A stretch of DNA of 64,000 nt, from positions 1-64,000 of the IMG/VR virus record IMGVR_UViG_3300035428_000130, one strand, 5' to 3'. This document shows positions 44,625 through 57,996 of the stretch, piece after piece; position 1 is the first letter of the stretch, and the number at the start of each line of letters is the position of its first letter. This stretch comes from a virus (taxonomy: Duplodnaviria; Caudoviricetes). The translations under genes and the position numbers were made by a program. The notes under the pieces are model-generated. The model searched no databases and was not told the DNA's origin. It saw only the letters and a list, made by a program, of their open reading frames with translations.

Positions 44625-44630
44625 GATTGA

Positions 44631-45446: not shown

Positions 45447-46006
45447 TAACTTTCCCCCTCAGTAGTACCGGCAATGCCGTCTGCAAAATTCAAAAGCTGT
45501 GTGATGGAGTTGATTTCCTCTGTGATTGCGGCATTGGCCTCAGCGGTTTTTCGTTTGGAGTCCGCAATCTTTGTTTCTGCCGCCTCAATCATAGACTTGA
45601 GGTGCTCAATGTCCGCCTCCGCCTCGCTGATGATGCTGTCATTTTCATCCTTGATACTTTGGGCAGCAGCTTCCAGTACATTGATACGTCCGCCGCCATC
45701 ATTGATAAGGTCGTGGACGTTAATGCCATTCACAGTGAGAATACCTGCAATAGAGGCTTGTTTCTTCGCGTTTGTCATCTCGGGCGGAAGGATGTCGATA
45801 TACGCCTTGATTTTGAAAATTGAGTGTGTGTCTTCAACTCCGCCCTGCTGGTAGACTGAATGAATAACATCCTCATAAGACACTTGCGAAGCGTCAATTT
45901 CGGGTGCATCTTCTGGCTCTACCGCTGGAACAAGGTTGCCCAAAGGAGTCACCAATGGAACTTCCTCAGTCCGAACAAGACCCATCTTTTCGAGAATTCC
46001 TGCCAC
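45446..46006 (-). CDS. Coiled-coil hypothetical protein
   Basis: Operon member. Confidence 0.7.
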   Translation of the reverse strand: MAGILEKMGLVRTEEVPLVTPLGNLVPAVEPEDAPEIDASQVSYEDVIHSVYQQGGVEDTHSIFKIKAYIDILPPEMTNAKKQASIAGILTVNGINVHDLINDGGGRINVLEAAAQSIKDENDSIISEAEADIEHLKSMIEAAETKIADSKRKTAEANAAITEEINSITQLLNFADGIAGTTEGES

Positions 46007-46630
46007 TTAGTTCCCTCCAATTCTAATTATTTGATCGCACATTTTAGAAGCTTCATCTTGGCTGTGCGTAACCATTAGGATAGTGTTTTGGGTTTTGCGA
46101 TGTATGTCAAGGATAAGACTTTGCATTTCGCTCCGTGTCTTATCGTCCAGAGCAGAAAGCGGCTCATCCATTAAGAGGTATTTAGGCTTGACATATAGCG
46201 TCCTTGCAAGTGCAAGCCTTTGCTGCATACCGCCCGAAAGCTGTGACGGCCATTTATCTTTGCAGCTATCCAATCCCACTTGGCAAAGTGCTAAATAGGC
46301 ATCAGCACGACTTTCATCTGTATACCGTTTTCGCTTATCACGCTGAGCAATTAGCACATTCTCCAAACAGGTAAGCCAGTTAAAATTACAATATCGTTGG
46401 TGCATCATATAAACTGGATTGCGCCTGGAAGTGCGATAATGAACACCGTCGATACTGACATGACCTTTAACTGGCGGGAGCAACCCCGCGATGGTTTTAA
46501 GTAATGTGGTTTTTCCCGCACCTGACTTTGCTAAAATGCCATACACTTTCCCGTCTTCAAAAGACAAGTTGAGATCATCAACAATTGCTACTCCGCCATA
46601 TCCGATAGAAAGATTATTCAACTGTATCAT
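46007..46630 (-). CDS. ABC transporter ATPase (TauB/SsuB-like)
   Basis: SGAGKTT, LSGGMQQR, LLMDEP, VTH. Confidence 0.93.
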   Translation of the reverse strand: MIQLNNLSIGYGGVAIVDDLNLSFEDGKVYGILAKSGAGKTTLLKTIAGLLPPVKGHVSIDGVHYRTSRRNPVYMMHQRYCNFNWLTCLENVLIAQRDKRKRYTDESRADAYLALCQVGLDSCKDKWPSQLSGGMQQRLALARTLYVKPKYLLMDEPLSALDDKTRSEMQSLILDIHRKTQNTILMVTHSQDEASKMCDQIIRIGGN

Positions 46631-47393
46631 TGCAAAACCTCCACTTAAATATCTTTCTGATTAGCGCTTTTCCAACCTTGTCAAACACATAGCTGAATAG
46701 CATAATCACAATAATTGCACCGAATACAACTGCGGTTTTGCCTCTTGCGGAGCTAACATTAATGATAAACCCAAGGCCATATTTAGCATTTGTGGCCTCT
46801 ACAACGGCGCAGTATGTCCACCCGATTCCATAGATGACAAGGAAGTTGTTACAGATGGAAGGTAGTGCCGCTGGTAAAAGAATTTCTTTGATTGTCTCCC
46901 AACTTGTCATGCCTATGGTTTTTCCTGTTTCCATTAAATCTGGCGGAACTTCATCAAAGCACAGCAGAACAGACGGTAGTAGATATACGAATGTCGCCAG
47001 GAAAAGAAATGATATTTTCATTTTTTCGCCAATGCCAAACCATAGAATCAACAGTGGCGAAAACGCTGTAACAGGCACATACCTCAAAAATGAAATTACA
47101 GGCATAATCGTTTCTTTTAGCGGCGCTATTCCATAGATAAGGAGAGCAAGTGGAACAGCAATTGCCATAGAGATAAACGATGCAGTCGTAATTCGCATGA
47201 ATGAATACAGCAACCCATTTGAAAGCTGACCTGTTTCAGCGAGTCCAATCACCGCTTTGAACACAGAGGCGGGAGATGGAATAAACATTGGCTTTGTAAA
47301 AAGCGATGCTATGTGCCAGACCGCCATAAAGCAGATAAGAAGCGTAATTCCACGGAAAAATTTCTTTGCCCTTTGGCCCACGCTATTCTTCAC
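46614..47393 (-). CDS. ABC transporter permease (TauC/SsuC-like)
   Basis: Multiple TM segments, PLLILWFGIGE, EAA-like loop. Confidence 0.9.
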   Translation of the reverse strand: MKNSVGQRAKKFFRGITLLICFMAVWHIASLFTKPMFIPSPASVFKAVIGLAETGQLSNGLLYSFMRITTASFISMAIAVPLALLIYGIAPLKETIMPVISFLRYVPVTAFSPLLILWFGIGEKMKISFLFLATFVYLLPSVLLCFDEVPPDLMETGKTIGMTSWETIKEILLPAALPSICNNFLVIYGIGWTYCAVVEATNAKYGLGFIINVSSARGKTAVVFGAIIVIMLFSYVFDKVGKALIRKIFKWRFCNDTVE

Positions 47394-47404
47394 ATAACAT
47401 CACC

Positions 47405-47677
47405 TCACAGTAAACTTTTCAGGCCATCAATAGCATTATTCATACCAGCGATACGGCCTTGAATGGATTCGATTGTTTCTTTTATTTCGCTCTTATCGTT
47501 TGGGATATAATATCCTTTGCCACAAGAGCAGATTGGATCGCCAGCGCTTCGAGCCTCGTTAATCAGTTTCCGAATGGACACTTGAGATATAGAGAAAGCT
47601 GTTGCAAGTTTACTTCCGCAAATTGGCGCTTTCTTTCCATTGGAATGTGCCATAATGTATTTGGTAATGAACTGCAT
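47405..47677 (-). CDS. Winged-HTH protein
   Basis: LATAFSISQVSIRKLINEAR..G.PICS..GYY. Confidence 0.7.
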   Translation of the reverse strand: MQFITKYIMAHSNGKKAPICGSKLATAFSISQVSIRKLINEARSAGDPICSCGKGYYIPNDKSEIKETIESIQGRIAGMNNAIDGLKSLL

Positions 47678-47699
47678 AACTACCCTCCCTTTAAGTGGA

Positions 47700-47723
47700 G
47701 CGGGCGGCGGTTAAGCCGCCCGC
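47700..47723 (-). terminator. Hairpin downstream of the DUF2828 gene
   Basis: GCGGGCGGC-GGTTAA-GCCGCCCGC. Confidence 0.55.
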
Positions 47724-47730
47724 CTTGCTT

Positions 47731-49308
47731 TTACAGATAGCTCAGAGCCTTGCCAATGGGCGCATACCGCTCACTGTTCAAAGTCTCCAGCAAGCACTCG
47801 TAGGGATCAGTCCTGCCGCTCATGACCATCTTGACGATGTTGGTGCTAAACCCGCTAACCAGGGCAACCCCCAAATCATTCTCGATGACAGGAATGGTGC
47901 CAGTACGGGAGTTGACGTTCCAGAACACCATTCTGGGAATCTGGTAGCCAGCCTCGGCGTAGCGCTTGGCAATCGTTTGGAACAGCTTGGCATTAGGACG
48001 ATTGCCGCCATAGCCGCCATAGCCATAACCACGACGAGCCGCACCACATGTAGCGCAACTGTCAAACTCCATATCAGAGATGATAAGGATGTTCTGGGGC
48101 AAGTCCTCCTGCGCCATATTGTTCTTGACCGCCGTAGAGAGAATCAGATCAAACACCGCCTCGATGTTGGTATTTGCCACCTCATTGTGCTGCAAGGCAA
48201 TCTGAATCTTCTCTCGAAGGTTCTTGCCGCTACTCAGATTGACAAGCTGAGGATGCTCGGAGAAGGTGATGTACTGATCCTTGAACTGGCCGGAAGAACG
48301 CTCAGCAAAGTAGATTGCCAGGGCATTAGCGACCTCCAGTGCGGTAGTAGAGGTGCCACCAACAGTGGTAGTCATACTGCCGCTTCCATCGGCCACAACA
48401 ATGGTATTGCCGCAGCCCTGTACCGTATCGGGGAGGGACTTCCATAGAGCCTCCAAGGTCTGATCCAGAGGCTTGAGACGGTCACGCCCCCAACCGTCGC
48501 CCATCATGTACTTACTCACAACATCGTGAGGATACAGAGTAGAGGCGTTGATCTTCACCTCGCCCTTTTCCAGAGCGGCCAGGAAAGCGCGACGGCGATC
48601 CTCGTCATTGCGCAGAAACGCATTGTTGTAAATCAGGTTCGCACGAGAGGGCACAGCCTCATACCTGATTGTATCCCAGGTGCGGGCGGACATTTTGCGC
48701 TCCACCACATCCAACTTCTTACGCAGACGAGAGAGTGTCTTGCGGTAATCCCGCTCAGTAACGCCAATATACTTGAAGATCTTCTTGGCGTATCGCTTGG
48801 TAGTGGGAGAGGACGCATTGGGAGAGGGGAGCCACTTCGCCAGAAGAGAGATGTTCTCGCCCTTGCTGGCTGCTTTCACATCCTCCACCAACTGCTTCTT
48901 GACCAGTGCCATCACATTGTCGGCCAGCTCCGTGTCCAGCAGGCTCCACAGGTCATCATATCTGCCGTACTCAGGCACCAGATTGATGAGAGGGATGATG
49001 TACTCGGGATTGGACACCGCCATCCGCTCAAACACAGAGCGGAACAACCGGCGCTCGCCCAAGCCACCACGTACATCGCGGGCGAAGAACAGCCACTTCA
49101 TGGCCGTTACCTTGTCCTCAAAGAACGCCCGCATAAAGCGGTCATAGATATCCTTGGGATTGGCCCGCCGCAGAGAAGCCACAGCGAAGTTGATATCCAA
49201 CAGTTCCTTGCCGGAGGTACGATAACCAACAGCGCCGTTCTCGGTGACAGACACGTTGAACTCATCGTTCAAAGTCCCCTTGACCGCAGACATAAAATTC
49301 TTGCTCAT
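47731..49308 (-). CDS. DUF2828 family TROVE/Ro60-like helical domain + vWA protein
   Basis: TENGA, RDVRGGLGER, YGRYDDL, AKWLP, VPSRA, DGSGSM MIDAS, ISDMEFD, FWNV, VSGFS. Confidence 0.88.
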   Translation of the reverse strand: MSKNFMSAVKGTLNDEFNVSVTENGAVGYRTSGKELLDINFAVASLRRANPKDIYDRFMRAFFEDKVTAMKWLFFARDVRGGLGERRLFRSVFERMAVSNPEYIIPLINLVPEYGRYDDLWSLLDTELADNVMALVKKQLVEDVKAASKGENISLLAKWLPSPNASSPTTKRYAKKIFKYIGVTERDYRKTLSRLRKKLDVVERKMSARTWDTIRYEAVPSRANLIYNNAFLRNDEDRRRAFLAALEKGEVKINASTLYPHDVVSKYMMGDGWGRDRLKPLDQTLEALWKSLPDTVQGCGNTIVVADGSGSMTTTVGGTSTTALEVANALAIYFAERSSGQFKDQYITFSEHPQLVNLSSGKNLREKIQIALQHNEVANTNIEAVFDLILSTAVKNNMAQEDLPQNILIISDMEFDSCATCGAARRGYGYGGYGGNRPNAKLFQTIAKRYAEAGYQIPRMVFWNVNSRTGTIPVIENDLGVALVSGFSTNIVKMVMSGRTDPYECLLETLNSERYAPIGKALSYL

Positions 49309-49327
49309 AAATGCTTCCTCCTTAAAA

Positions 49328-49344
49328 GTGAATTAGTTAATTTC
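49328..49344. promoter_or_regulatory. Repeated AT-rich motif, copy 6
   Basis: GTGAATTAGTTAATTTC upstream of the DUF2828 RBS. Confidence 0.65.
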
Positions 49345-49363
49345 TTTTGCTTTGCAAACTCCA

Positions 49364-49423
49364 AGACACTTTAGCTACCCATTCAGTATGAGTTTTGCTA
49401 ACTACTTTTTGCTGTATGTGTCC
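49364..49423 (-). ncRNA. ACAGCAA-module RNA A (stand-alone)
   Basis: GGACAC-AT-ACAGCAA ... GTGTCT closing stem; inner TTAGC/GCTAA and ACTCAT/ATGGGT stems. Confidence 0.7.
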
Positions 49424-49439
49424 CAGAGGAAGCGAAAAC

Positions 49440-49523
49440 GAGAGGCAAATTCAAAGGGTTTGAACCTTCTCATATCAGCTATGTAGCTAATACTTTAACC
49501 ATTAAGATTGCTGTACGCCTCTC
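49440..49523 (-). ncRNA. ACAGCAA-module RNA B enclosing tRNA-like D, anticodon and T arms
   Basis: GAGAGGC-GT-ACAGCAA...GAAGG-TTCAAAC-CCTTT...GCCTCTC. Confidence 0.7.
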
Positions 49524-49646
49524 TATATTGTTTGGCCTATTGTGGCCTAAACCACACAATCAATTTACATTCCCTCTTTCCTTTAGATTGCCATTTCTAC
49601 CAACTTTTTAGAGACTGTTTGAATGGCGAAGTCAACTCATACCCTC

Positions 49647-49771
49647 GGTGCGACAGGTGGGACTCGAACCCACGAATGGCGGCTTGGCTTATTTTTGATC
49701 TTGCTGTTAGTGAATCTTCCCGACTCACATTTTTTTAATGGCCGCTGTCTTAGCCCCTTGACTACTGCCGC
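49647..49771 (-). ncRNA. tRNA-like RNA C, 57-nt ACAGCAA insert in place of the anticodon loop
   Basis: Acceptor GCGGCAG/CTGTCGC, anticodon stem GCGGC/GCCGC, T arm GTGGG-TTCGAGT-CCCAC. Confidence 0.8.
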
Positions 49772-49822
49772 ATAGAGGCTACCAGCTATTGCAAATCACT
49801 GATAGCATATCCCCAGCTATTA

Positions 49823-49990
49823 CCGCACTGTGGAAAACTGAGGGCAACCACCCTTCCGGCATTTTGGAATGCCAGTTGACTACCTCTGGATTCTATATCA
49901 CAGACCCAGTAACACTCCACCCTATCAGCCTTAGGTGAATAACGCTTTGTTTATCGCTTATAGCTCAGCGGACTCATTACGCCAGTGCGG
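49823..49990 (-). ncRNA. Unidentified ~168-nt multibranch structured RNA
   Basis: Closing stem CCGCACTG/CAGTGCGG and several internal stems; no convincing ORF. Confidence 0.55.
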
Positions 49991-50012
49991 GCAAGGAGAG
50001 TTCTATCCTTTC

Positions 50013-50130
50013 GGTGCCAGGGGTTGGACTCGAACCAACGACCACGGGATTACAATTCCTTGAAAAATTGCTGTTTACGCCTTTAGACAAGGCACGTTAT
50101 TACGCGCTCTACCACCTGAGCTACCCTGGC
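50013..50130 (-). ncRNA. tRNA-Thr(UGU)-like RNA D, 43-nt ACAGCAA insert in the anticodon stem
   Basis: GCCAGGG/CCCTGGC-ACC, canonical D and T arms; excising the insert gives CGGGA-ATTGTAA-TCCCG. Confidence 0.8.
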
Positions 50131-50134
50131 ATAT

Positions 50135-50250
50135 TGCGGGCAAGCAGAATCGAACTGCTAACCATCTGTCCCTCAAACATCTTTGCTGTTAGTGTCGTTA
50201 AACGACACATTTTGTTTTTACAGATGCTCTATCCATTGAGCTATACCCGC
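50135..50250 (-). ncRNA. tRNA-like RNA E, 50-nt ACAGCAA insert in place of the anticodon loop
   Basis: GCGGGTA/TGCCCGC, GCTC-AATGGATA-GAGC, TCTGT/ACAGA, AGCAG-TTCGATT-CTGCT. Confidence 0.8.
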
Positions 50251-50256
50251 ATTTTA

Positions 50257-51282
50257 TCACGCAACAAATAGAGACTCCGCAAATTTGTCCATCTCTGTGA
50301 TTAGCTTATAGCAGTTTCCATGTGAAGCATGATTTTTCCATGATAGATATTTTTCGTCAAATTTTGCTCTGGACATCTTTCCGGCCTGAACCAGTTTTGC
50401 ATTTGTGCGGAGACGCTTTTTGATTTGACGCTTATTGTCGCCTGTCAACTTACGAATCACTTTGCCATCATCCGTCAGATAGGAGTGAAAACCAAGGAAA
50501 CGAATGCCTTTTTGCATTGGTACAATCTCGGTTTTATTGTTCAGCTCCAGTTGCAAGTCTGCTAAATATGCCTTAATCTGTATTAGACATTCTTGCAAAT
50601 ACTCTTTGCTTTCGGCTAACAGGTAAAAGTCATCCATATATCTGCCGTAGTATTCACAGCCCAGATTTTCTTTAACAAAGTGATCCAGGCCGTCCAGAAA
50701 CATCAGCGCAAAGACCTGACTACATTGATTTCCAAGTGGTAATCCGCAACCCTCAGTGCTGTCAATGAATAAGTCGCAGATCCATTGGATATCTACATCA
50801 TCAAAATACTGTCTCACGCATTCTTTCATAGCTTTGTGGTCAATGCTATAAAAGAACTTTGCTATATCACATTTAAGTATATAGCCATTGCAACCATGCT
50901 TGTCATAGAAAGAAAGTAAATTTTCTGACAAGCGGTTTAGTCCGAACAAGGTTCCCTTGCCTGTTTGACCTGCGTAATTATCCAGAATAAAGACATCTTT
51001 CAGCTTAGGAAGTAACACATAATCGCACAGGCAATGTTGGAGAACCTTGTCACGAAAAGAACCTGATTTGACAACCCTTCGTTTCGGCTCAGAGACAATA
51101 AATTCAGTATACGCACCGATTTTATATGTATGGTCTATCAACTGGCGTTTCATCACGCACAAGTTTTCTAAGGCCAGCACATTGAACCTTATTGCGCTCT
51201 GTCTTTTCCCTTTGCCTTTCAGAGAAACTTTGCAGGAGTTATAAAGGTTTCCAAAATCGACTAACTTCTGAAAGTCGCTCAT
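50257..51282 (-). CDS. DGR reverse transcriptase
   Basis: EPKRR, FRDKVLQH, LKCDIAKFF, LPLGNQCSQ (SQ motif), YMDD; no maturase/endonuclease domain. Confidence 0.95.
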   Translation of the reverse strand: MSDFQKLVDFGNLYNSCKVSLKGKGKRQSAIRFNVLALENLCVMKRQLIDHTYKIGAYTEFIVSEPKRRVVKSGSFRDKVLQHCLCDYVLLPKLKDVFILDNYAGQTGKGTLFGLNRLSENLLSFYDKHGCNGYILKCDIAKFFYSIDHKAMKECVRQYFDDVDIQWICDLFIDSTEGCGLPLGNQCSQVFALMFLDGLDHFVKENLGCEYYGRYMDDFYLLAESKEYLQECLIQIKAYLADLQLELNNKTEIVPMQKGIRFLGFHSYLTDDGKVIRKLTGDNKRQIKKRLRTNAKLVQAGKMSRAKFDEKYLSWKNHASHGNCYKLITEMDKFAESLFVA

Positions 51283-51393
51283 TTGCTTTTGTATTTATCC
51301 CGCAACCAGCGAGAAAGGTTATGTACTCTTTTGATAGTGTGGCGCACTCCTTGTAACCGCCGAAGCAGTTTATAGACCTCGCTAATCCACCAG

Positions 51394-51473
51394 AACGGGC
51401 GAACGTCGTTGCTGTAATCACAGTCATTCCAGTTCAGAATGCCATTGGAGTTGACGTAGCAAACGTTACGAGC
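51394..51473 (-). repeat. DGR template repeat (TR)
   Basis: 80 nt, AAC/AAT-rich, between avd and RT. Confidence 0.93.
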
Positions 51474-51503
51474 TTCAGCACATAGCCTAAAGGAGAAGTC
51501 AAA

Positions 51504-51869
51504 TCAGGATTTTCGCCATGCGAGAGTCATGAATTTTACATCATGAGCGAGATTTGTCCAGGTTTCACCTGTAGCCGCACTGATTAGATGAGCATGGAGG
51601 CTGTATTTTGTTAGGCTGAGGAACTTGTTGCACTTTGTAATGGCGCTGGTCTGAAAATCAAACCGTTTATTCCGTTGAGATACGGTATCTGTGCGGAACG
51701 AATTTGCGTCCATCACATCACTGTGAATACCAAGCGCATACTTTTGAAGCTGATCTGCCAGACGGCGAAATTTTGTGGGATAGTGTTCCCGATTTGTTGT
51801 CAAATCGAACACACTGAAATACAGTTCTTCCGCCTTGTCGCCTATATCAAACTTGACCTCACTGCTCAA
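51504..51869 (-). CDS. avd: DGR accessory variability determinant (Avd-like four-helix bundle)
   Basis: 121 aa, YPTKFR..L...L, AN, ends AWRKS; position in the cassette. Confidence 0.8.
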   Translation of the reverse strand: MSSEVKFDIGDKAEELYFSVFDLTTNREHYPTKFRRLADQLQKYALGIHSDVMDANSFRTDTVSQRNKRFDFQTSAITKCNKFLSLTKYSLHAHLISAATGETWTNLAHDVKFMTLAWRKS

Positions 51870-51876
51870 TTGCTAC

Positions 51877-52488
51877 TCAAGAAACCAAGATTGAAGAATT
51901 CAAAATACAAAACGGGCGAACGTCGCAGCTGAAATCACAGTCACTCCAGTACAGAAGGCCACGGGAGAAGACGCAGCAAACGTCACGAGCATAGCCAGTG
52001 TCCTCGTCATGCGTCACTCTGGTCGCCGTCCACCACGGCTCATCCATAGCGGGCAGATACTCTCTGTAGCGGCGGTACAGCTCGGTTGTCAGAATCGAAA
52101 CATTGTCCTTACAGGAGATTCCCTTGCCGGTTCCGTCATCGGCAACCAGCTTGACGGTATGCTGTACGATGTTCTCAGCACCAATCGCAGCGGCCAGCTC
52201 CTTATAGAAATCGCCATTGCAGTAGGAGCGGACATCACTCTTGCGCCAGTCGCCATTGCCGCCGAAGGACATACGCTTTACAGAATCCTTGACAAGCACA
52301 GCCGTCGTTTCTGCGCCATGGCCCAGGACATAGAACTCACGACCTCCCAGCTTCGTGATCCCGCCGCACTTGATGTCGCCAAGCGTCAGCACTTTCTTCT
52401 CCGTCAGCAGAATAGATACGCTGCCATCCGCAGACTTGTTGAGCGTCACATCGACGTTCGGGATGTTGTTCTGAATATTGATGTTCAT
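51877..52488 (-). CDS. DGR target protein (DUF6273-like / C-type-lectin-like C-terminus)
   Basis: W..SDVR..CN..F, WWTAT, C-terminal VRP; carries the VR. Confidence 0.88.
   Translation of the reverse strand: MNINIQNNIPNVDVTLNKSADGSVSILLTEKKVLTLGDIKCGGITKLGGREFYVLGHGAETTAVLVKDSVKRMSFGGNGDWRKSDVRSYCNGDFYKELAAAIGAENIVQHTVKLVADDGTGKGISCKDNVSILTTELYRRYREYLPAMDEPWWTATRVTHDEDTGYARDVCCVFSRGLLYWSDCDFSCDVRPFCILNSSILVS
51911..51990 (-). repeat. DGR variable repeat (VR)
   Basis: 80 nt, 12 mismatches to the TR, all at TR adenines. Confidence 0.93.
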
Positions 52489-52519
52489 TGCGATACCTCC
52501 AAATCACATAATTAACTTC

Positions 52520-52626
52520 GGTGAGCCAGGGCGGGACTCGAACCCGCTTCTGTAGATTAAATGTCCAGTGTGTACACACCGTCGGCAGCGCTACCGATAC
52601 TGTTTTACCCATAAACTATCCCAGCC
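52520..52626 (-). ncRNA. tRNA-like RNA F with an insert between D arm and anticodon-like arm (no ACAGCAA)
   Basis: GGCTGGG/CCTGGCT, GTTT/AAAC D stem, GCGGG-TTCGAGT-CCCGC. Confidence 0.6.
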
Positions 52627-52782
52627 ATATTGGTGTTGGGTGATAGGCTTCACCACATCCCGCTTACCTATCCTTACGCCCAACTCGTACAATTGTGCGG
52701 GTCTTTCGGTGTGGATTCCGTCCGACTTTACGGATGGTACGTCTACCAGTTTTGCAAAGAAAGGAAGGACGTACATGTACGC

Positions 52783-52896
52783 TGGTGCAGAGGGGAGGAC
52801 TTGAACCTTCGACATACAGAATTCACTTTAATATTGCTGTCTGTGCCAATCTCGACACGTTTTTGTCTGTTGCTCTACCAACTGAGCTACCTCTGC
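52783..52896 (-). ncRNA. tRNA-like RNA G, 45-nt ACAGCAA insert in place of the anticodon loop; encoded CCA
   Basis: GCAGAGG/CCTCTGC-ACCA, GCTC-AGTTGGTA-GAGC, ACAGA/TCTGT. Confidence 0.8.
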
Positions 52897-52956
52897 ATCT
52901 CTGTTATAACTACCTGTTAGAATGAATATCTGCTAACCAGAAAGTTAAATCGGCTT

Positions 52957-53066
52957 TGGGGAGCTACGGAATCGAACCGTAAGCAAAAGATTTGCATTCT
53001 TTTTAAGTAACATTGCTGTTAGTGTCCGCCGATCATTACACTTTGAGCCGCCCTCCAGACGCTCCC
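52957..53066 (-). ncRNA. tRNA-like RNA H with the ACAGCAA module 5' of a GCA (Cys-like) anticodon arm
   Basis: GGGAGC/GCTCCC, AAAGA-ATGCAAA-TCTTT, TACGG-TTCGATT-CCGTA. Confidence 0.65.
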
Positions 53067-53151
53067 AGGTTGCCGCACTTACACGGCAGTAGCGGTCTTT
53101 CCCGTCGTCACGCACTCTTACTTCCGAATTGCCATATTGCCCTTATACGGC

Positions 53152-53235
53152 TGGTGCCGCTGAGGGGAGTTGAACCCCTACGCCATAAGCAGCCGAGCTT
53201 AAATCGGATGTGTCTTCCAGTTCCACCACAGCGGC
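53152..53235 (-). tRNA. tRNA-Leu(TAA)
   Basis: Full cloverleaf, loop TTTAAGC, long variable arm, ACCA end. Confidence 0.88.
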
Positions 53236-53438
53236 ATATAATCGAGCAAGGTACGGGCCATACTCCCATACAATAGGCGAACCTATTTTGTATTCGCTTC
53301 ATCTGAAATAAGCAGTTGACACAAAATGTAGGAGGTGAATAATGGAAAGAGGAAAATGGAGGTGTCATGAATCAAAACAGTTATGCTTATTACGCTCAGA
53401 TTATCGAATAGGCTTTCTCTTTGCCTACTTGCTCTTGG

Positions 53439-53528
53439 TGGCGAAGCAGACAGGACTCGAACCTGCACACCCTTTCGGGCTACTGACGGTTTAGCAAACC
53501 GTTGCCTTACCATTAGGCTTACTGCTCC
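53439..53528 (-). tRNA. tRNA-Ser(GCT)
   Basis: Full cloverleaf, ACGGT-TTGCTAA-ACCGT, long variable arm, GCCA end. Confidence 0.9.
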
Positions 53529-53536
53529 ATAAATAC

Positions 53537-53602
53537 AAGGCGCTTAAAAAAGAGTGTTCGTTTATCAGTCAAATTCTTCTTTATAATTGCTGTATGCGCC
53601 TT
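53537..53602 (-). ncRNA. ACAGCAA-module RNA I (stand-alone)
   Basis: AAGGCGC-AT-ACAGCAA ... GCGCCTT. Confidence 0.7.
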
Positions 53603-53611
53603 AATGCTGGG

Positions 53612-53812
53612 TTATAGAAGCTTTGCTTTTGATGCTGGCACAACGCCTCTTGCCTTATACCAGATCATTGTGCCATCTTCATAATGGATATCGTATGGGT
53701 AATCACGATCTGCCGGATTAACCTGCTTTACCGTTCCAAAGCCATACTTCTTGTCGTAAACTCTATCCCCAACCTTGAACTTAGGCTTGAACTCTTTTAC
53801 GGTATTCCTCAT
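53612..53812 (-). CDS. Small SH3/KOW-like beta-barrel protein
   Basis: KFKVGDRVY...GFGTV...YDIHY. Confidence 0.6.
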   Translation of the reverse strand: MRNTVKEFKPKFKVGDRVYDKKYGFGTVKQVNPADRDYPYDIHYEDGTMIWYKARGVVPASKAKLL

Positions 53813-53837
53813 ATTTTATCTCCCTTCGGATTGGAAC

Positions 53838-53894
53838 ACGGCACACCACAAATATAATTTCAAGTTATATGTAGAATGTTGCTGTTAGTGCCGT
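53838..53894 (-). ncRNA. ACAGCAA-module RNA J (stand-alone, with an anticodon-like hairpin)
   Basis: ACGGCAC-TA-ACAGCAA ... ATATAA-CTTGAAA-TTATAT ... GTGCCGT. Confidence 0.7.
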
Positions 53895-53906
53895 TGACTT
53901 CTTGGA

Positions 53907-54197
53907 TTACTCCGCAGCCTCTACACTGAGAAGCTTGGAGAAGTTGGCGATAATGGCAGCGTTATTGCTACGCTTCTTAGCCATTGTCTCGCGGGTCTGA
54001 GCCAATTCAGCGGCGTATTTGTCAATATCCGCCATTGAATCAGAGATTTGCTGATTAATCAGCTCCAGGCCAGAAATGGTACGGGTAACAAGGTCAACCG
54101 CCTCATCAGCTTCACGCTCCAGCAGAGCAATCTCTGTCTGCTTCTCTTTCAGAATGTCATGCACAGCAGGAGCAGGAGTAGGTGTGGTCTTTCTCAT
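53907..54197 (-). CDS. Coiled-coil hypothetical protein
   Basis: GGAGG RBS, coupled to the upstream gene. Confidence 0.65.
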   Translation of the reverse strand: MRKTTPTPAPAVHDILKEKQTEIALLEREADEAVDLVTRTISGLELINQQISDSMADIDKYAAELAQTRETMAKKRSNNAAIIANFSKLLSVEAAE

Positions 54198-54484
54198 ACA
54201 GCTTCCTCCTTTTCACCAGAATCTTGTGACATATCGGCATCCTGAGAAGCCTCAGCCTTTTTCTTTGCCCCGTCCTTATCCCAATCACAGTCAGAGGGCT
54301 TAATCAAAGCCAGATAACCGTCGCCATTGAGGTAGGTAGTTAGGGGGCGAACCTCACCAGGAGGTTGATTGCGTCGGCATCCCTGCTTGGCGAAGTTAAG
54401 GAACTTACAGCCATTACAGGTGTGTGCCCTCGGCACCCAGTAGTAACCGCTCTCTCGTTTCGTGTTTTGCTTTTGATCTGCCAT
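54194..54484 (-). CDS. Hypothetical protein
   Basis: CxxC motif; RBS. Confidence 0.6.
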   Translation of the reverse strand: MADQKQNTKRESGYYWVPRAHTCNGCKFLNFAKQGCRRNQPPGEVRPLTTYLNGDGYLALIKPSDCDWDKDGAKKKAEASQDADMSQDSGEKEEAV

Positions 54485-54508
54485 CTTCTACACTCCCTTA
54501 TTTATTAT

Positions 54509-54760
54509 TTAGGCCACTGCGGTCTTCTTTGGTCGTACTGGCAGTAGAAATAGAAACGGCCAAGGTTTCACGCCACCAGTATTAGGTGTATCCAATAAAG
54601 GCTTTCCACACTGGGGGCAGTATTGAAACCGCATATGGCGACCCGCACTGTCAACAAAGATATTGGTTCCTATTTCAATGTGGGCACATCCTAAGCTATC
54701 GTCAGATGTCCCAAAAGCTAAGAACTCACGACCTTTTTGACAGTATTCGCATCCACTCAA
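54509..54760 (-). CDS. Zn-ribbon hypothetical protein
   Basis: CEYC...YCPQCGKPL. Confidence 0.6.
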   Translation of the reverse strand: MSGCEYCQKGREFLAFGTSDDSLGCAHIEIGTNIFVDSAGRHMRFQYCPQCGKPLLDTPNTGGVKPWPFLFLLPVRPKKTAVA

Positions 54761-54852
54761 ATTACACCACCTCTTTTATCAATCATTATCCGTTCGGGAG
54801 TCGAACCCGCCCTCTTAAAAGTCCACCGGAACTTATTCGGACATATCTTAGA

Positions 54853-54869
54853 ATGAATTAATTAAGTTC
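54853..54869. promoter_or_regulatory. Repeated AT-rich motif, copy 7
   Basis: ATGAATTAATTAAGTTC. Confidence 0.55.
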
Positions 54870-54895
54870 TTCTGTGAACTTAAAGGCTTTCGCCT

Positions 54896-55867
54896 TTAAG
54901 CTTCCTCTTTAGAGGGAGGTGTATAGGTTGGGAAGAAATGCTCTCTGAATAAATGGTAATCATATAACCGCCGATTAGCAAGCGCTACTGTGGAATATTT
55001 CTCACCAAATATTTCTTCAATCTTTGCTACATCATTGGCTTGGATAACGCCGTATGTGCGCTCGTAGATGTATGCACGACTATATACGCCAGACCAATAA
55101 ATTTTATCGTAGTTAAATAGGTTCTTGGATTCCTCGGAGCTATTGCCAAACTGATTTATCGAAATCCTAAGACGCTGCCCTTGGTCAAATCGGTCGCACC
55201 TGGTATTTCTTAACAGCCATTCACTGGGCACATACTTTAAGGTGATAATAGCTCGCCCCAAAGATTTATACTCGGTTGCGTCACGATAATCTTTGATATA
55301 CTCCATGATTTGCGTAATCGGCCTAATTGTTTTACCAGCCGTTACAATGCAATCGTCAAGCACCTCAGACTTTTTAACTTGCATGGCTTCTTCGATTGTC
55401 AAACCGCACCAGGCCAAGTAAATCGCTGTAATCGCTGTTCCGAATATCGCATCGTCAACCCGTTCTGCGGCAATCAATGTGCTATCAATTGCATCCTGCA
55501 AGCTTGGAAAGTCTTTGAAGTATCTGCTGTCGTAGTAACCAGCAACTTTGAGATCCTTGATTGTGACGGCCTTTAGAGCTTTGACACAATCGTCAGAGAT
55601 AAGCCCCGCTGCATTGATATATTCGACATACTGCAATATCTTAGATTTCATCACAGTAAGCACCGGAATTGTCGCAACGTTTAGCCGCTCCAAAAGATTG
55701 ATATAGTCCTCCTTGCCATATCCATCTTCTAAGGTCTTTTCAAGAGCTTCTTCGGCCTTTCCAATCCGTTTCCAAATATCTTCAAAGGTTCGGATCGACA
55801 ATTCCGTGAATCTATAGTCGCTCACATAGGATTCTATAAACTGGCGACGGTAACTACTGTTATCCAC
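54896..55867 (-). CDS. Tyrosine-recombinase-fold protein, MrpR (SPbeta YopR)-like repressor candidate
   Basis: 323 aa; box-I-like LAWCGLTIEE lacks the catalytic Arg; own promoter; near the immunity region. Confidence 0.6.
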   Translation of the reverse strand: MDNSSYRRQFIESYVSDYRFTELSIRTFEDIWKRIGKAEEALEKTLEDGYGKEDYINLLERLNVATIPVLTVMKSKILQYVEYINAAGLISDDCVKALKAVTIKDLKVAGYYDSRYFKDFPSLQDAIDSTLIAAERVDDAIFGTAITAIYLAWCGLTIEEAMQVKKSEVLDDCIVTAGKTIRPITQIMEYIKDYRDATEYKSLGRAIITLKYVPSEWLLRNTRCDRFDQGQRLRISINQFGNSSEESKNLFNYDKIYWSGVYSRAYIYERTYGVIQANDVAKIEEIFGEKYSTVALANRRLYDYHLFREHFFPTYTPPSKEEA

Positions 55868-55921
55868 GTCCCACCCTCCTATTCACTTGCGAAGTTGTTT
55901 AATTAAATCCTTGTTGAGTAT

Positions 55922-55950
55922 AATATAGCACATGAGAGCCGACTTGTCAA
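55922..55950 (-). promoter_or_regulatory. SigA-type promoter of the MrpR-like gene
   Basis: TTGACA-17 bp-TATATT with extended TG. Confidence 0.7.
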
Positions 55951-55980
55951 TAGGGTTTAATTAATTTGTTTCAACTTTTT

Positions 55981-56412
55981 TTACCCACCCTTCCAAGCCG
56001 CATACGCCTCAGCATAATACGAACAAAGTCCAACTTCAACTCCGCTTCCGTTTACAAAGAAAACGTCCAAAATCGCTTTGATCTCTGCTGCGTCCAAGAC
56101 CAGGAATACCCGGCCATCTACACGATCCCCGTCCGTAGTGTTAATGTGCAAGTAAGCCGTTGTATGTACAACTTTTTTCTGTACATTGAAAAACACTTCG
56201 GCGGAAAGGTTCTGCACCATCTGATCGTAGCGCCATACTCCATAGTCCAGGCCACAGCCCTTTTGGAGCAAGATAAGGTTTTGCGCCTCCACGCAAATAT
56301 CGCCCCACAGCTCTCCAGTATAGGGCAAGACAATCCGACGAGAATCGGTGCTCACCATTCCAAAATCGGCGGGCGTAACACTTCTCTGCTCACAACCGTT
56401 TCTTACATTCAT
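55981..56412 (-). CDS. Hypothetical protein
   Basis: First ORF after the leftward switch promoter; no motif recognised. Confidence 0.4.
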   Translation of the reverse strand: MNVRNGCEQRSVTPADFGMVSTDSRRIVLPYTGELWGDICVEAQNLILLQKGCGLDYGVWRYDQMVQNLSAEVFFNVQKKVVHTTAYLHINTTDGDRVDGRVFLVLDAAEIKAILDVFFVNGSGVEVGLCSYYAEAYAAWKGG

Positions 56413-56440
56413 GATTTCACATTTACCCCCGTTTTTTTAG

Positions 56441-56558
56441 TTGACATTCGAGAAAATATGGGCTATAATTGGTAAGCAACGATAATATTTTATCGGGCAG
56501 GCTTCAATATAGCAGAAAATATTATCGCTGTCAAGAGGCAATCGGGAAAATTTTATCT
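56441..56558. promoter_or_regulatory. Face-to-face promoters with palindromic operators (genetic switch)
   Basis: + TTGACA(56441)-17-TATAAT; - TTGACA(56534)-17-TATATT; CGATAATATTTTATCG at 56480-56495 with variants at 56512-56527 and 56543-56558. Confidence 0.75.
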
Positions 56559-56574
56559 TTATGTGAGGTGCCTT

Positions 56575-56919
56575 ATGGATTCAATTATCTACGTTCGGAT
56601 CAAAGAACTATGCGCAGCTAAGGGAATAACCTTGGCAAAACTGGAAGAAGATACTGGGCTAAGCTCTTCTATCATACGGAAGTGGAAAAACAACACCTCA
56701 CCATCCATTGATAAAGTGAAAGTAATTGCCGAATACTTCAATGTTTCCACCGATTACTTGGTTGGCCGATCTGATATATCCACTCCCGCAGAAGATTTGA
56801 TCGGAGATGAGGATTTTGTTTCCCTCCAGCGAGCCAAGTCACGCATGTCACCCCAAGACCGTGATAGAATGATGCGCATGTTGAAATTGGGATTTGAATA
56901 TGCGTTCCGCACAGAATGA
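56575..56919 (+). CDS. XRE-family HTH repressor (ImmR/CI-like)
   Basis: GITLAKLEE..GLS...IRKWK...PSIDK...IAEYFNVSTDYLVG. Confidence 0.9.
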   Translation: MDSIIYVRIKELCAAKGITLAKLEEDTGLSSSIIRKWKNNTSPSIDKVKVIAEYFNVSTDYLVGRSDISTPAEDLIGDEDFVSLQRAKSRMSPQDRDRMMRMLKLGFEYAFRTE

Positions 56920-56975
56920 AGTCCGTTTTATAGGACAATATACCGTGTATAATAGGCCATAACTGGAGGTGCAGC

Positions 56976-57584
56976 ATGGTCAGATATCCCTATATCTATA
57001 ATCAAGTCTTACAGATTTACAAAGGGCTATCCAACATCCAATTCCCGATAGAGCCATGTGATATTGTTTCAGCCATTCCTAACTGCAAAGCTTTAACTTA
57101 TCGTGAATTTGCGGAAGCAACCGACTGTTCCATTCGGGATGTTGTTCTGTTGTGTGAGAGTACGTCGGGATGTACTCACTACGATGTAACCAGAGATCGG
57201 TACTTAATCCTTTGGAATTCAGACAGCGAAGGACACAATGTAGCAGGACGAAAGCGCTGGACAAAGGCTCATGAGCTGGGCCATGTTATTTTGAAACATC
57301 TTCCTCTTGTTGCGGAACCAATGCTGGCGGAGAATGGATTTAACAACCTGTCCGCCCCAGACCTGGAGACTGAGGCGGATCAGTTTGCCGCCACTCTACT
57401 ATGCCCCATGCCACTATATACATCCCTTGGAATCTCATCCTCGTTCGATATACAGCGTGTATTTGGCTTATCTACTGAAGCCTCCACGAATCGTTGGGCA
57501 GAGTATCAGCGCTGGGTACGCTATCACAGGAAAACAGCCTGGGAAAACGACATGAAGCGAGTCTACCAACAAAAGAAGATTTAG
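56976..57584 (+). CDS. ImmA/IrrE-family metallopeptidase (antirepressor)
   Basis: RKRWTKAHELGH, ETEADQFAATLLCP. Confidence 0.9.
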   Translation: MVRYPYIYNQVLQIYKGLSNIQFPIEPCDIVSAIPNCKALTYREFAEATDCSIRDVVLLCESTSGCTHYDVTRDRYLILWNSDSEGHNVAGRKRWTKAHELGHVILKHLPLVAEPMLAENGFNNLSAPDLETEADQFAATLLCPMPLYTSLGISSSFDIQRVFGLSTEASTNRWAEYQRWVRYHRKTAWENDMKRVYQQKKI

Positions 57585-57923
57585 ATTGAGTCCTCTGCTT
57601 TCTCGCAGGGGACTTTTTCTATTCCATAGGAACAGAAGTGAGTCGGCGGAACCATCGTGATATGAGATGGTGCATCTACAAAACACATGCCTCCGCCCAG
57701 AAGCGCTACCTGACCTTCCACCGAAATGTAATGCTTGCAGTTGGAACAGAAAACAATTTTTGTCTCTTCCATCACGCTACCTCCTTGAAGTCGTTCTCGA
57801 TTTCTCGCTTGGCCTCAGCGATTGTGTCAGCAGAACACATAAAGTTTCCAGCCGAGTCACGAACCTCCACATGGCCGTTGCGGTACTCAATACTATACTC
57901 CATAGCGACACCTCCCCATAAAA

Positions 57924-57940: not shown

Positions 57941-57996
57941 TTTTCAAATCAAAAAAATTCTTCCCTTTTATATCTACCCATCCGGCTCAATCTTTG

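What the first reader, a model, noticed from the sequence alone, without database searches (positions are those of the whole stretch)
49647..52896. tRNA scaffolds whose anticodon loop is replaced by a 45-57 nt protein-binding-like module
Seen: RNAs C (49647-49771), E (50135-50250) and G (52783-52896) retain acceptor, D, anticodon and T stems. The 7-nt loop is replaced by an A-rich linker, a hairpin (GTGAGTC/GATTCAC, GTGTCG/CGACAC, GTGTCG/TGGCAC) and NNACAGCAA. The three scaffolds have different sequences, so the module was placed in several tRNA backbones. The inserts are far too short for group I introns, and I see no bulge-helix-bulge. Inference: these are natural tRNA-scaffold display RNAs, processed by RNase P/Z but unable to decode. 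They could act as adaptors or as decoys for tRNA-targeting defence enzymes.
Basis: partly seen in the sequence, partly recalled or inferred. Interest (0 to 1): 0.82.

Follow-up and report, generated by a model that had tools for sequence, protein, structure and literature searches.

The report
tRNA-shaped RNAs carrying Ro60-type handle
This gut phage encodes tRNA-shaped RNAs with a conserved hairpin-plus-ACAGCAA arm grafted next to the anticodon; the arm is most likely a permanent docking handle for a Ro60-like ring protein encoded next door, which would make them an apparently unpublished viral relative of the Ro60/Y-RNA particles.

Summary
RNAs C, E and G are tRNA-shaped genes on the minus strand (Rfam tRNA 44.7-54.5 bits) with 44-56 extra bases in the anticodon loop. 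Each insert holds a 6-7 bp hairpin followed by NN-ACAGCAA.

I found two more carriers. D has the insert in the anticodon stem at 28/29. H has it in the D-arm region. Four stand-alone RNAs carry the same module in a circularly permuted form.

The array ends at a gene (47731-49308) whose model matches Ro60 structures over its full length (Z up to 15.4). Most of the 62 related viral contigs, and homologues down to 25% identity including cultured Bacillus, Listeria and Enterococcus phages, have the module just upstream of this gene. The helices and tRNA stems covary.

Most loop-insert relatives have A rather than U at position 33, so simple excision would not give a normal decoder. No endonuclease or ligase gene was found.

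Best reading (0.6): unspliced tRNA mimics that dock a Ro60-like protein. A new protein-dependent intron remains possible (0.2), mainly for D. I found no paper or Rfam family for it. This scan has met the same system before on other DNA. No expression or binding data were obtained.

The parts
47731..49308 (-). Ro60-like protein gene (525 aa; Pfam DUF2828 + DUF7788 + weak VWA_2), last gene of the RNA array
   Evidence: Pfam result. AlphaFold2 model: mean pLDDT 77. Foldseek: the top 13 hits are all Ro60/TROVE structures, probability 1.0, E 3.5e-7 to 3e-5. VIA-align: Z 11.5-15.4 with about 400-417 residues aligned over residues 16-519; the vWA-only hits that follow have Z 10.9 or less. The DxSxS MIDAS residues are invariant in 17 homologues.
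49363..49424 (-). Stand-alone handle RNA B: a 7-bp terminal stem, then AT-ACAGCAA, then a 39-nt cargo holding a 5-bp/7-nt-loop hairpin. It ends 55 nt before the start codon of the Ro60-like gene.
   Evidence: An equivalent RNA sits about 80-110 nt upstream of the gene in nearly all related contigs.
49440..49523 (-). Stand-alone handle RNA A: a 7-bp terminal stem, then GT-ACAGCAA, then a 61-nt cargo with a T-arm-like hairpin
   Evidence: The fold has a z-score of -3.1. L002 7745 has the same layout.
49647..49771 (-). RNA C: tRNA-shaped (Gly-type). The handle lies inside the anticodon loop (hairpin and motif at 49698-49734). GCC-AA is kept just 5' of the 3' strand of the anticodon stem.
   Evidence: tRNA model 44.7 bits. 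Handle model 36.8 bits. The minimum-energy fold keeps the cloverleaf stems plus the handle hairpin, z -3.1. In 9 orthologues, 14 of 20 pairs show compensatory change and N-C-C-A is kept.
50015..50130 (-). RNA D: tRNA-shaped. A 43-nt handle (50060-50102) interrupts the 5' strand of the anticodon stem between positions 28 and 29. Downstream lie 3 bp of stem and a complete canonical Thr(UGU) loop.
   Evidence: Read from the sequence. Handle model 40.4 bits. Without the insert it is a 73-nt cloverleaf, 71% identical to the contig's ordinary tRNA-Thr(UGU). Relatives with the same insertion site carry Asn, Thr or Lys loops.
50135..50250 (-). RNA E: tRNA-shaped. The handle lies between the 5' strand of the anticodon stem and a 7-base loop-like run (handle core 50180-50214).
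   Evidence: tRNA model 52.1 bits. Handle model 34.3 bits. Fold z-score -4.2.
52783..52896 (-). RNA G: tRNA-shaped with an encoded CCA end. The handle lies in the anticodon loop (core 52831-52864).
   Evidence: tRNA model 54.5 bits. Handle model 28.0 bits, E 2e-5, and G was not in the training set.
52958..53066 (-). RNA H: has an acceptor stem, a T arm and a complete Cys(GCA)-type anticodon stem-loop. The handle (core 53010-53047) takes the place of the D-arm region.
   Evidence: Read from the sequence. Handle model 19.1 bits, E 0.01. Relatives keep the layout but carry Ser, Thr or Pro loops. The fold alone is not significant, z -0.4.
53537..53602 (-). Stand-alone handle RNA: a 7-bp terminal stem, then AT-ACAGCAA, then cargo. 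It lies just upstream of the ordinary tRNA-Ser(GCU).
   Evidence: z -2.9.
53838..53894 (-). Stand-alone handle RNA: a 7-bp terminal stem, then TA-ACAGCAA, then a cargo hairpin with a 7-nt loop of anticodon-loop form (CTTGAAA)
   Evidence: The same loop recurs in relatives.

Best explanation
C, E and G, together with D and H, are tRNA-shaped partner RNAs of a phage Ro60-like protein. They are a viral counterpart of Y RNAs.

Proposed mechanism:
- The grafted arm, a 7-bp helix whose 3' strand runs on into single-stranded NN-ACAGCAA, is a kept docking handle for the ring protein encoded at 47731-49308.
- The tRNA body, and above all the anticodon-side bases placed 8-20 nt after the handle, are the cargo the particle presents to something that recognises tRNA.
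- That partner could be a host anticodon nuclease or other tRNA-targeting defence, a synthetase or modification enzyme, or an exonuclease such as PNPase, as in known Ro60-Y RNA-PNPase machines.
- The four stand-alone RNAs are the same handle written in the Y-RNA layout: a terminal stem, the motif, then cargo.

Shown here: the RNA anatomy, its conservation and covariation, the gene-RNA linkage, and the Ro60 fold of the protein.

Inferred: binding, retention of the arm in the mature RNA, lack of decoding, and the biological role.
For: 1. Protein. Pfam gives DUF2828 + DUF7788 + VWA. The model matches Ro60 structures over its full length: Foldseek probability 1.0 and VIA-align Z up to 15.4 over about 410 residues, including a Thermus phage Ro60. 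The MIDAS residues are invariant.

2. Linkage.
- 62 related viral contigs were fetched through the protein alone. Nearly all whose homologue is at least 54% identical carry 2-9 ACAGCAA copies on the gene's strand within about 2 kb upstream.
- The same holds for homologues of 25-39% identity: L073 and L146, Prevotella phage Lak-B6, Bacillus phage vB_BcoS-136, Listeria phage LMTA-148 and Enterococcus phage EA1.
- No other neighbouring gene is conserved with the pair.

3. Structure under selection.
- Hairpin handle: 95% of cells paired, and 72 cells with changes on both sides against 25 in shuffles.
- Of 221 unique motif copies, 103 have a perfect 7-bp partner downstream, against 5.5% for shuffled strands. 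35 have a perfect hairpin upstream, against 0.5%.

4. tRNA bodies are kept. Long tRNA-model hits above threshold occur in relatives. C-type orthologues show compensatory change in 14 of 20 pairs.

5. Against simple splicing.
- In loop-insert types the base before the anticodon-like triplet is mostly A. By my manual count it is U in about 1 of 10 C-type and 3 of 10 E/G-type sequences.
- An automated count, whose register is noisy, gives T33 in 7 of 51 sequences, against 34 of 37 where the whole loop lies downstream.
- The triplet nevertheless stays within one amino-acid box: NCC for the C-type and NGG for most of the E-type.

6. The same handle occurs in RNAs that are not inside tRNAs. Their cargo is often a 5-bp/7-nt-loop hairpin of anticodon form: 49 of 74, against 22 expected.

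7. Promoters abut the first base of the terminal stem in the Bacillus phage and precede the arrays in L014 and L019.

8. Precedent. Bacterial and phage Y RNAs lie next to Ro60 genes and mimic tRNA (PMC4201824). A Thermus phage Ro60 binds two RNAs encoded upstream of its gene (PMC12135203).
Against: - There is no expression, end-mapping or binding data. The public RNA runs were available only as contigs and show nothing either way.
- The Pfam TROVE model does not match the protein.
- The canonical Ro60-binding motif of Y RNAs (GNCGAA) is absent, and no Rfam Y-RNA family matches.
- Removing D's insert gives a flawless tRNA-Thr(UGU). Its relatives give flawless Asn, Thr and Lys arms, which is what an intron would predict.
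- E and a few relatives keep U33.
- The covariation set was chosen for pairing, so the percentage paired is inflated.
- Three distant homologue loci (L053, L054, L059) lack the motif upstream.
Confidence: 0.6

Rival explanations
1. The inserts are a new class of short, protein-dependent tRNA introns. The hairpin plus ACAGCAA would be the recognition element, perhaps bound by the Ro60-like protein. A host or phage nuclease and a ligase such as RtcB would then excise it to give working tRNAs.
For: - Excising D's 43 nt gives a perfect 5-bp stem and a canonical Thr(UGU) loop.
- Relatives with inserts at 28/29 or 29/30 give canonical Asn, Thr, Lys and Pro arms. A compensatory change spans the insert: CG..CG in some sequences against CT..AG in others.
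- E, L036 and L073 have U33 in the 7 bases before the 3' stem strand.
- Short unexplained tRNA introns were reported in Lak megaphages (10.1101/356790), and Lak-B6 encodes a homologue of the protein.
- In Listeria phage LMTA-148 the gene lies 1.3 kb from RtcB genes.
Against: - Most loop-insert members would lack U33 after any simple excision.
- Some stem-insert relatives would end up with 8- or 9-nt loops.
- The same module stands alone in RNAs that have no exons.
- The distances from the module to the putative junctions vary: 8-17 nt on the 3' side and 7-13 nt on the 5' side.
- No RtcB, splicing endonuclease or RNA ligase family was found in the contig, which is estimated 75% complete.
- The contig already has an ordinary tRNA-Thr(UGU).
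- The handle model finds nothing significant in Lak-B6.
Confidence: 0.2
2. The module is an RNA processing signal. A nuclease would cut at or near it, yielding tRNA halves or releasing the small RNAs from the long array transcript. The Ro60-like protein would be unrelated to it or would only guide the cut.
For: - The arrays look like single operons behind one promoter in L014 and L019, so processing must occur.
- The module lies at RNA boundaries in the stand-alone form.
Against: - In the Bacillus phage several stand-alone RNAs have their own promoter abutting the stem.
- A mere cleavage signal would not need a covarying 7-bp helix plus an invariant 7-mer linked to one protein family across 25-77% identity.
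Confidence: 0.1
3. The inserts are remains of a small mobile element that landed in tRNA genes, leaving decaying pseudogenes.
For: There are several copies of one short module in one region, inserted at different tRNA positions.
Against: - The stems of both the module and the tRNA bodies are kept by compensatory change across diverged phages.
- The strand and order relative to the protein gene are fixed.
- There are no copies elsewhere in the 101-kb contig.
- No presence/absence polymorphism was seen among close relatives.
Confidence: 0.03

Closest known systems
Bacterial and phage Ro60 (Rsr) with YrlA/YrlB Y RNAs (Chen et al. 2014, PMC4201824) and Thermus phage phiLo Ro60 with Yrl1/Yrl2 (PMC12135203)
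   Same: - A ring protein with the Ro60 fold plus a vWA/MIDAS domain.
- Several small RNA genes just upstream of its gene.
- RNAs closed by a terminal stem with a conserved single-stranded motif beside its 5' strand.
- Cargo that mimics tRNA (T arm, D arm, acceptor stem).
   Different: - The protein belongs to Pfam DUF2828/DUF7788, and the TROVE model does not hit it.
- The conserved motif is ACAGCAA, not GNCGAA, and no Rfam Y-RNA family matches.
- The handle can be closed by its own hairpin and grafted into an otherwise complete, unpermuted tRNA. The RNA ends then sit at the acceptor stem and the anticodon bases are kept.
- Many cargoes are bare anticodon stem-loop look-alikes.
Class I RNAs of dictyostelid social amoebae (Kjellin et al. 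2021, PMC7919456)
   Same: - About 60 nt long.
- A short covarying stem joins the 5' and 3' ends.
- A conserved, unstructured 11-nt motif follows the 5' strand of the stem, and the rest is variable.
- The paper states that T, C, C, A, A at motif positions 3, 6, 9, 10, 11 are nearly invariant. This fits ..T..C..CAA of the commonest form here (C-TA-ACAGCAA).
- From my own memory, the full amoeba motif ends in ACAGCAA.
   Different: - Class I RNAs are eukaryotic and were reported as unique to Dictyostelia.
- Their known binder is an RRM protein (Rnp1A).
- No tRNA cargo is described.
- I did not compare sequences directly here.
tRNA genes with introns: bacterial group I introns in the anticodon loop, archaeal/eukaryal bulge-helix-bulge introns, and the 'enigmatic' short introns of Lak megaphage tRNAs (10.1101/356790)
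   Same: Extra sequence interrupts an otherwise good tRNA gene in or near the anticodon arm. For D-type members, precise removal would restore a canonical tRNA.
   Different: - The inserts are 43-57 nt, far below group I size.
- They lie 5' of the anticodon (D-arm region, 28/29, 29/30, 31/32 and into the loop), never at 37/38.
- They carry a motif shared with stand-alone RNAs.
- Most loop-insert members cannot yield U33.

Membership tests
Ro60/TROVE proteins | Ring of HEAT-like repeats followed by a vWA domain with a MIDAS site (fold level) | tested here: met
   Foldseek: the 13 best hits are Ro60/TROVE structures, probability 1.0. VIA-align: Z 11.5-15.4, about 400-417 residues aligned across residues 16-519, rmsd 4.4-6.2. 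DxSxS, T and D residues are invariant in 17 homologues. Model confidence is only moderate (pLDDT 77).
Ro60/TROVE proteins | Match to the Pfam TROVE model PF05731 (sequence level) | tested here: not met
   No match in the contig at E <= 1, while the control genomes did match. Pfam instead assigns DUF2828 and DUF7788. phmmer against PDB sequences found nothing at E <= 1.
Ro60-Y RNA ribonucleoproteins | Partner RNA genes encoded next to the Ro60 gene | tested here: met
   Nine module copies lie upstream of the gene in the window. The same arrangement is found in most of 62 related contigs and in distant homologues.
Ro60-Y RNA ribonucleoproteins | RNA with a terminal 5'/3' stem and a conserved motif in the adjoining loop | tested here: met
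   The stand-alone RNAs have a 7-bp covarying terminal stem followed by NN-ACAGCAA. In C, D, E, G and H the same element is circularly permuted and closed by a hairpin.
Ro60-Y RNA ribonucleoproteins | Canonical Ro60-binding sequence (GNCGAA-type 5' strand, bulged helix) or a match to Rfam Y RNA/YrlA families | tested here: not met
   Only tRNA hits in 44000-58000 at E <= 1 and in 10 related loci at gathering score. The conserved motif is ACAGCAA.
Ro60-Y RNA ribonucleoproteins | Physical binding of the RNA by the protein | not testable with these tools
   No protein-RNA prediction or experiment was available. Binding is inferred from linkage only.
tRNA (Rfam RF00005) | Cloverleaf with acceptor, D, anticodon and T stems | tested here: met
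   C 44.7, E 52.1 and G 54.5 bits against a gathering score of 29. Stems are kept by compensatory change in C-type orthologues.
tRNA (Rfam RF00005) | 7-nt anticodon loop with U33 and a purine at 37, able to decode | tested here: not met
   The loops of C, E and G hold 44-56 extra bases. No join of flanking bases gives U33 in C or G. Relatives mostly have A33. E, and D if its insert were excised, would meet the feature.
Group I tRNA introns | Self-splicing ribozyme core of about 200 nt or more in the anticodon loop | tested here: not met
   The inserts are 43-57 nt. No intron family was hit in the Rfam scan at E <= 1.
Archaeal/eukaryal protein-spliced tRNA introns | Bulge-helix-bulge at the exon-intron junctions, usually at 37/38, with an EndA-type endonuclease and a ligase | tested here: inconclusive
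   The inserts lie 5' of the anticodon, and the predicted folds show no bulge-helix-bulge. No tRNA_int_endo, RtcB or RNA_ligase family was found in the 75%-complete contig. The T4 Rnl1 search had no working control. Host enzymes were not examined.

The most novel reading that the evidence does not exclude
The particle is an anticodon-display device. A Ro60-like ring holds a panel of tRNA bodies and bare anticodon stem-loops (Gly, Pro, Thr, Asn, Lys, Cys, Ser and Gln types). Many of them carry A33, which would spoil decoding and perhaps cleavage. The panel would serve as decoys or traps for host anticodon nucleases and other tRNA-targeting defences, or would hand the captured partner or damaged tRNA on to an exonuclease or ligase. 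The same ancient handle would also explain the orphan Class I RNAs of social amoebae.
Probability: 0.15. Interest if true: 0.9.

Novelty: new variant of a known kind. Interest (0 to 1): 0.74.

Why it matters
- Ro60 and Y RNAs are a long-studied but functionally unclear RNA-surveillance system. A second, sequence-divergent branch with its own RNA handle is present in 711 phage records of the reference collection, including Felix O1-like, KVP40-like, Listeria, Staphylococcus, Enterococcus, Bacillus, Campylobacter and mycobacterial phages. That would give the field genetically tractable models.
- Dozens of phage genes now called tRNAs with introns, pseudo-tRNAs or suppressor tRNAs by gene finders would be re-read as protein-docking tRNA mimics.
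- It bears on the current interest in phage tRNAs as counter-measures to tRNA-cleaving defences.
- It offers a natural example of the tRNA-scaffold design used by RNA engineers.
- It may give a first lead to the protein partner and origin of the amoebal Class I RNAs.

Tried and rejected
- **blastn of the array against the phage collection.** No match for 49300-50260; only the ordinary tRNA-Ser matched for 52500-54000.
- **Public RNA runs.** All four runs laid were contigs. They showed no joint skipping an insert; the listed joints are cross-matches between tRNAs of other organisms. This says nothing about splicing or expression.
- **Collection scan for three spaced ACAGCAA copies.** It returned mostly Thr/Pro-rich coding repeats. 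Only L073, L107 and L146 were informative.
- **Are the Lak megaphage tRNA introns this module?** The handle model found nothing significant in the 547-kb Lak-B6 genome (best E 0.2), although one stand-alone handle RNA lies upstream of its homologue. The Lak supplementary table is not held.
- **Sigma-70 promoter and terminator scan of the window array.** Not above chance.
- **ARAGORN intron mode.** It forces anticodons (tta, gag, tga) that I do not accept.
- **Text search for the amoebal motif.** It returned only unrelated primers.
- **Presence/absence polymorphism of the insert among close relatives.** None found. L012 differs only by a point change in the motif.
- **RtcB, tRNA_int_endo, RNA_ligase and T4 Rnl1 families.** None found in the contig.
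- **Pairing between the A-rich linker and the tail after ACAGCAA.** Present in some stand-alone RNAs by eye, but not in C or E, so I make no claim.

Full report
**Setting**

The window is the first 64 kb of a 100,965-bp viral contig with 44% G+C. Public runs that hold it are mouse-gut samples. Genes carry strong Shine-Dalgarno sites, as in phages of Firmicutes (read).

All features of the finding lie on the minus strand, in a run of small RNA genes from about 53.9 to 49.36 kb. That run ends at the start codon of a 525-codon gene (47731-49308). A diversity-generating retroelement (50257-52488) sits inside the array. It is absent from all related contigs.

**Observation**

Plain ARAGORN finds only two ordinary tRNAs, Leu(UAA) and Ser(GCU). 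The Rfam tRNA model aligns end to end with three more RNAs, each with a long insertion in the anticodon loop:

| RNA | Coordinates | tRNA model bits | Insertion |
|---|---|---|---|
| C | 49649-49771 | 44.7 | 56 nt |
| E | 50135-50250 | 52.1 | 50 nt |
| G | 52786-52896 | 54.5 | 44 nt |

I add three things.

- After ACAGCAA come 13-20 more bases. The last five of them look like anticodon-loop positions 34-38.
- Two further tRNA-shaped genes carry the module.
  - In D (50015-50130) a 43-nt insert (50060-50102) splits the 5' strand of the anticodon stem between positions 28 and 29. The rest of the stem and a canonical Thr(UGU) loop lie downstream.
  - In H (about 52958-53066) the module replaces the D-arm region, upstream of a complete Cys(GCA)-type anticodon arm.
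- Four more copies (motifs at 49415, 49514, 53593, 53885) are not in tRNAs. In these, the 7 bases before NN-ACAGCAA pair with 7 bases lying 32-61 nt downstream. The same element is therefore written as a circular permutation: stem strand, motif, cargo, other stem strand.

**Is it more than chance?**

I built a covariance model from 35 hairpin handles, 32 of them from other contigs. Its scores in the window are:

| RNA | Bits | Note |
|---|---|---|
| D | 40.4 | in training set |
| C | 36.8 | in training set |
| E | 34.3 | in training set |
| G | 28.0 | E 2e-5, not in training set |
| H | 19.1 | E 0.01, not in training set |
| next best hit in 64 kb | 13.5 | |

The helix covaries. 95% of cells are paired, and 72 cells changed on both sides against 25 in shuffles. 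Slid controls pair at 31-46%. I chose those sequences for pairing, so the percentage paired is inflated; the variety of pair types is the meaningful part.

An unselected count is cleaner. Of 221 unique motif copies within 2.6 kb upstream of the protein gene in all contigs:

- 103 have a perfect 7-bp partner downstream, against 5.5% for shuffled strands;
- 35 have a perfect hairpin upstream, against 0.5%.

**The neighbour**

- Pfam gives DUF2828, DUF7788 and a weak vWA match.
- The Pfam TROVE model and PDB sequence searches find nothing.
- An AlphaFold2 model from 17 homologues has mean pLDDT 77.
- Foldseek matches it best, and over its whole length, to Ro60 structures: frog and human Ro60, Deinococcus Rsr and the Ro60 of Thermus phage phiLo. 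Probability is 1.0.
- VIA-align gives Z 11.5-15.4 with about 400-417 residues aligned. The vWA-only hits that follow have Z 10.9 or less.
- The MIDAS residues of the vWA domain are invariant.

I conclude that the protein has the Ro60 architecture but lies outside the reach of the TROVE sequence model.

**Linkage**

I fetched 62 viral contigs through the protein alone.

- Nearly all with a homologue of 54% identity or more carry 2-9 ACAGCAA copies on the gene's strand in the 1-2 kb upstream. One copy lies about 80-110 nt before the start codon.
- No other neighbouring gene is conserved with the pair.
- The link persists at 25-39% protein identity:
  - contigs L073 and L146;
  - Prevotella megaphage Lak-B6;
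  - Bacillus phage vB_BcoS-136, with nine copies in and after its tRNA array;
  - Listeria phage LMTA-148 and Enterococcus phage EA1, with three copies each in the unannotated gap before the gene.
- In the Bacillus phage, consensus promoters end a few bases before the first base of the terminal stem.
- In L014 and L019 one promoter precedes the whole array.
- Three distant loci (L053, L054, L059) lack the motif and have a G+C-rich leader instead.
- tblastn finds homologues in 711 records of the phage collection. Some are annotated 'Ro-like RNA binding protein'.

**Handle or intron?**

Points in favour of an intron:

- Excising D's insert gives a flawless 73-nt tRNA-Thr(UGU).
- Relatives with inserts at 28/29 or 29/30 give flawless Asn, Thr, Lys and Pro arms. 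A compensatory change spans the insert.

Points against:

- In the loop-insert types, which include C and G, no join of the flanks yields U33.
- Across relatives the base before the anticodon-like triplet is mostly A. By my manual count it is U in about 1 of 10 C-type sequences and 3 of 10 E/G-type sequences.
- An automated count, noisy in register, gives T33 in 7 of 51. Where the whole loop lies downstream of the module it gives 34 of 37.
- The triplet and the next base are nevertheless kept. N-C-C-A is invariant in nine C-type orthologues, and all versions are Gly anticodons. Their four tRNA stems change only by compensation: 14 of 20 pairs.
- Some stem-insert relatives would end up with 8- or 9-nt loops.
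- The module occurs in RNAs that have no exons. Their cargo is often a 5-bp stem with a 7-nt loop of anticodon form, such as CTTTTAA, TTTGGGT, CTTGAAA or CTGCTAA. This holds for 49 of 74 payloads, against 22 expected.
- The contig has an ordinary tRNA-Thr(UGU) only 71% identical to D.
- No RtcB, splicing-endonuclease or RNA-ligase family is found in the contig, which is estimated 75% complete.
- The public RNA data were contigs only and are uninformative.

On balance, the arm is more likely kept than removed. For D-type RNAs I cannot exclude removal.

**Mechanism proposed**

The Ro60-like ring binds the 7-bp helix and the single-stranded ACAGCAA that continues its 3' strand. The RNA that follows, whether a whole tRNA body or just an anticodon arm, is the cargo. 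It is presented to a tRNA-recognising partner.

This follows the known logic of Y RNAs, which tether Ro60 to other proteins and mimic tRNA (PMC4201824; PMC12135203). Which partner is involved is open. The frequent A33, the conserved positions 35-37, and the RtcB genes near the homologue in the Listeria phage make tRNA-targeting defence, or repair of its damage, the most attractive guess. It is only a guess.

**Comparison with what is known**

The closest described systems are Rsr-YrlA and phiLo Ro60-Yrl. This system differs in four ways:

- the protein family;
- the motif, ACAGCAA rather than GNCGAA;
- the absence of any Rfam match;
- the unpermuted, complete tRNA carriers.

The stand-alone RNAs also match the published description of dictyostelid Class I RNAs: a short covarying terminal stem, an 11-nt motif after its 5' strand with T, C, C, A, A fixed at positions 3, 6, 9, 10, 11, and a length of about 60 nt (PMC7919456). 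The exact amoebal motif sequence is from my memory.

Searches for DUF2828, for phage tRNA introns and for Ro60 in phages found no paper describing this RNA family.

Earlier notes of this scan report the same protein-handle pairing, and tRNAs with the handle grafted in, in many other phages and giant viruses. Those are unchecked AI notes. I retested their main claims on this DNA.

**Verdict**

- The best explanation is a tRNA-shaped Y-RNA-like partner of a Ro60-like phage protein (0.6).
- The main rival is a new kind of intron (0.2).
- Relative to the literature this is a new variant of a known kind.
- It merits bench work in one of the cultured phages that carry it.

Noticed in passing
window 50257-52488 (-): A diversity-generating retroelement is inserted in the RNA array. 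Its parts are a reverse transcriptase (50257-51282), a small ORF (51504-51869), a template repeat at about 51395-51475, and a variable repeat at about 51913-51990 at the 3' end of a DUF6273 ORF (51877-52488). None of the 62 related contigs has it. Public runs differ from the window at 14 sites within 51924-51990, as expected of an active variable repeat.
   Followed up: partly
window 52524-52625 (-): This is a sixth tRNA-shaped gene, F (Rfam tRNA 26.8 bits, below threshold). It has a different 32-nt insert of two short hairpins at 29/30 and no ACAGCAA. Its downstream loop CATTTAA is Lys-like with A33, and the same loop recurs in stand-alone handle RNAs of relatives.
   Followed up: partly
L053 about 3850-4000; L059 about 5500-5650: Upstream of three distant homologues (36-39% identity) there is no ACAGCAA. 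Instead there is a promoter followed by a G+C-rich structured leader with no Rfam match. It could be a different partner RNA or a riboswitch-like element.
   Followed up: partly
L189 (Listeria phage LMTA-148) 6852-8062: Two adjacent ORFs annotated as tRNA-splicing ligase RtcB (a split gene?) lie 1.3 kb downstream of the Ro60-like gene. This echoes the bacterial rsr-rtcB repair operons.
   Followed up: no
L188 (Bacillus phage vB_BcoS-136) 880-3900: Nine handle RNAs are interleaved with a 17-tRNA array. Three have a TTGACA/TATAAT promoter ending a few bases before the terminal stem. Several enclose nearly whole tRNA-like cargo of 95-105 nt.
   Followed up: partly
L182 (Prevotella phage Lak-B6) 3833-3900: A stand-alone handle RNA (7-bp stem, ACAGCAA, 44-nt cargo) lies about 100 nt upstream of a 25%-identical homologue in a 547-kb megaphage.
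   Followed up: partly
L041 about 5060-5090; L045 about 7830-7860; L061 about 7410-7440: Some stem-insert carriers have 8- or 9-nt loops in the anticodon arm downstream of the handle.
   Followed up: no
window 46007-47393 (-): ABC-transporter ATPase and permease-like genes lie directly downstream of the Ro60-like gene. This is unusual cargo for a phage, and only 6 related contigs share it.
   Followed up: no
G000 C1 about 100770-100900 (outside the window): At the contig end, after four ordinary tRNAs (Met, Thr, Ala, Ile), a T-arm and acceptor end are preceded by about 100 nt of structured sequence. This may be another interrupted tRNA-like gene.
   Followed up: no
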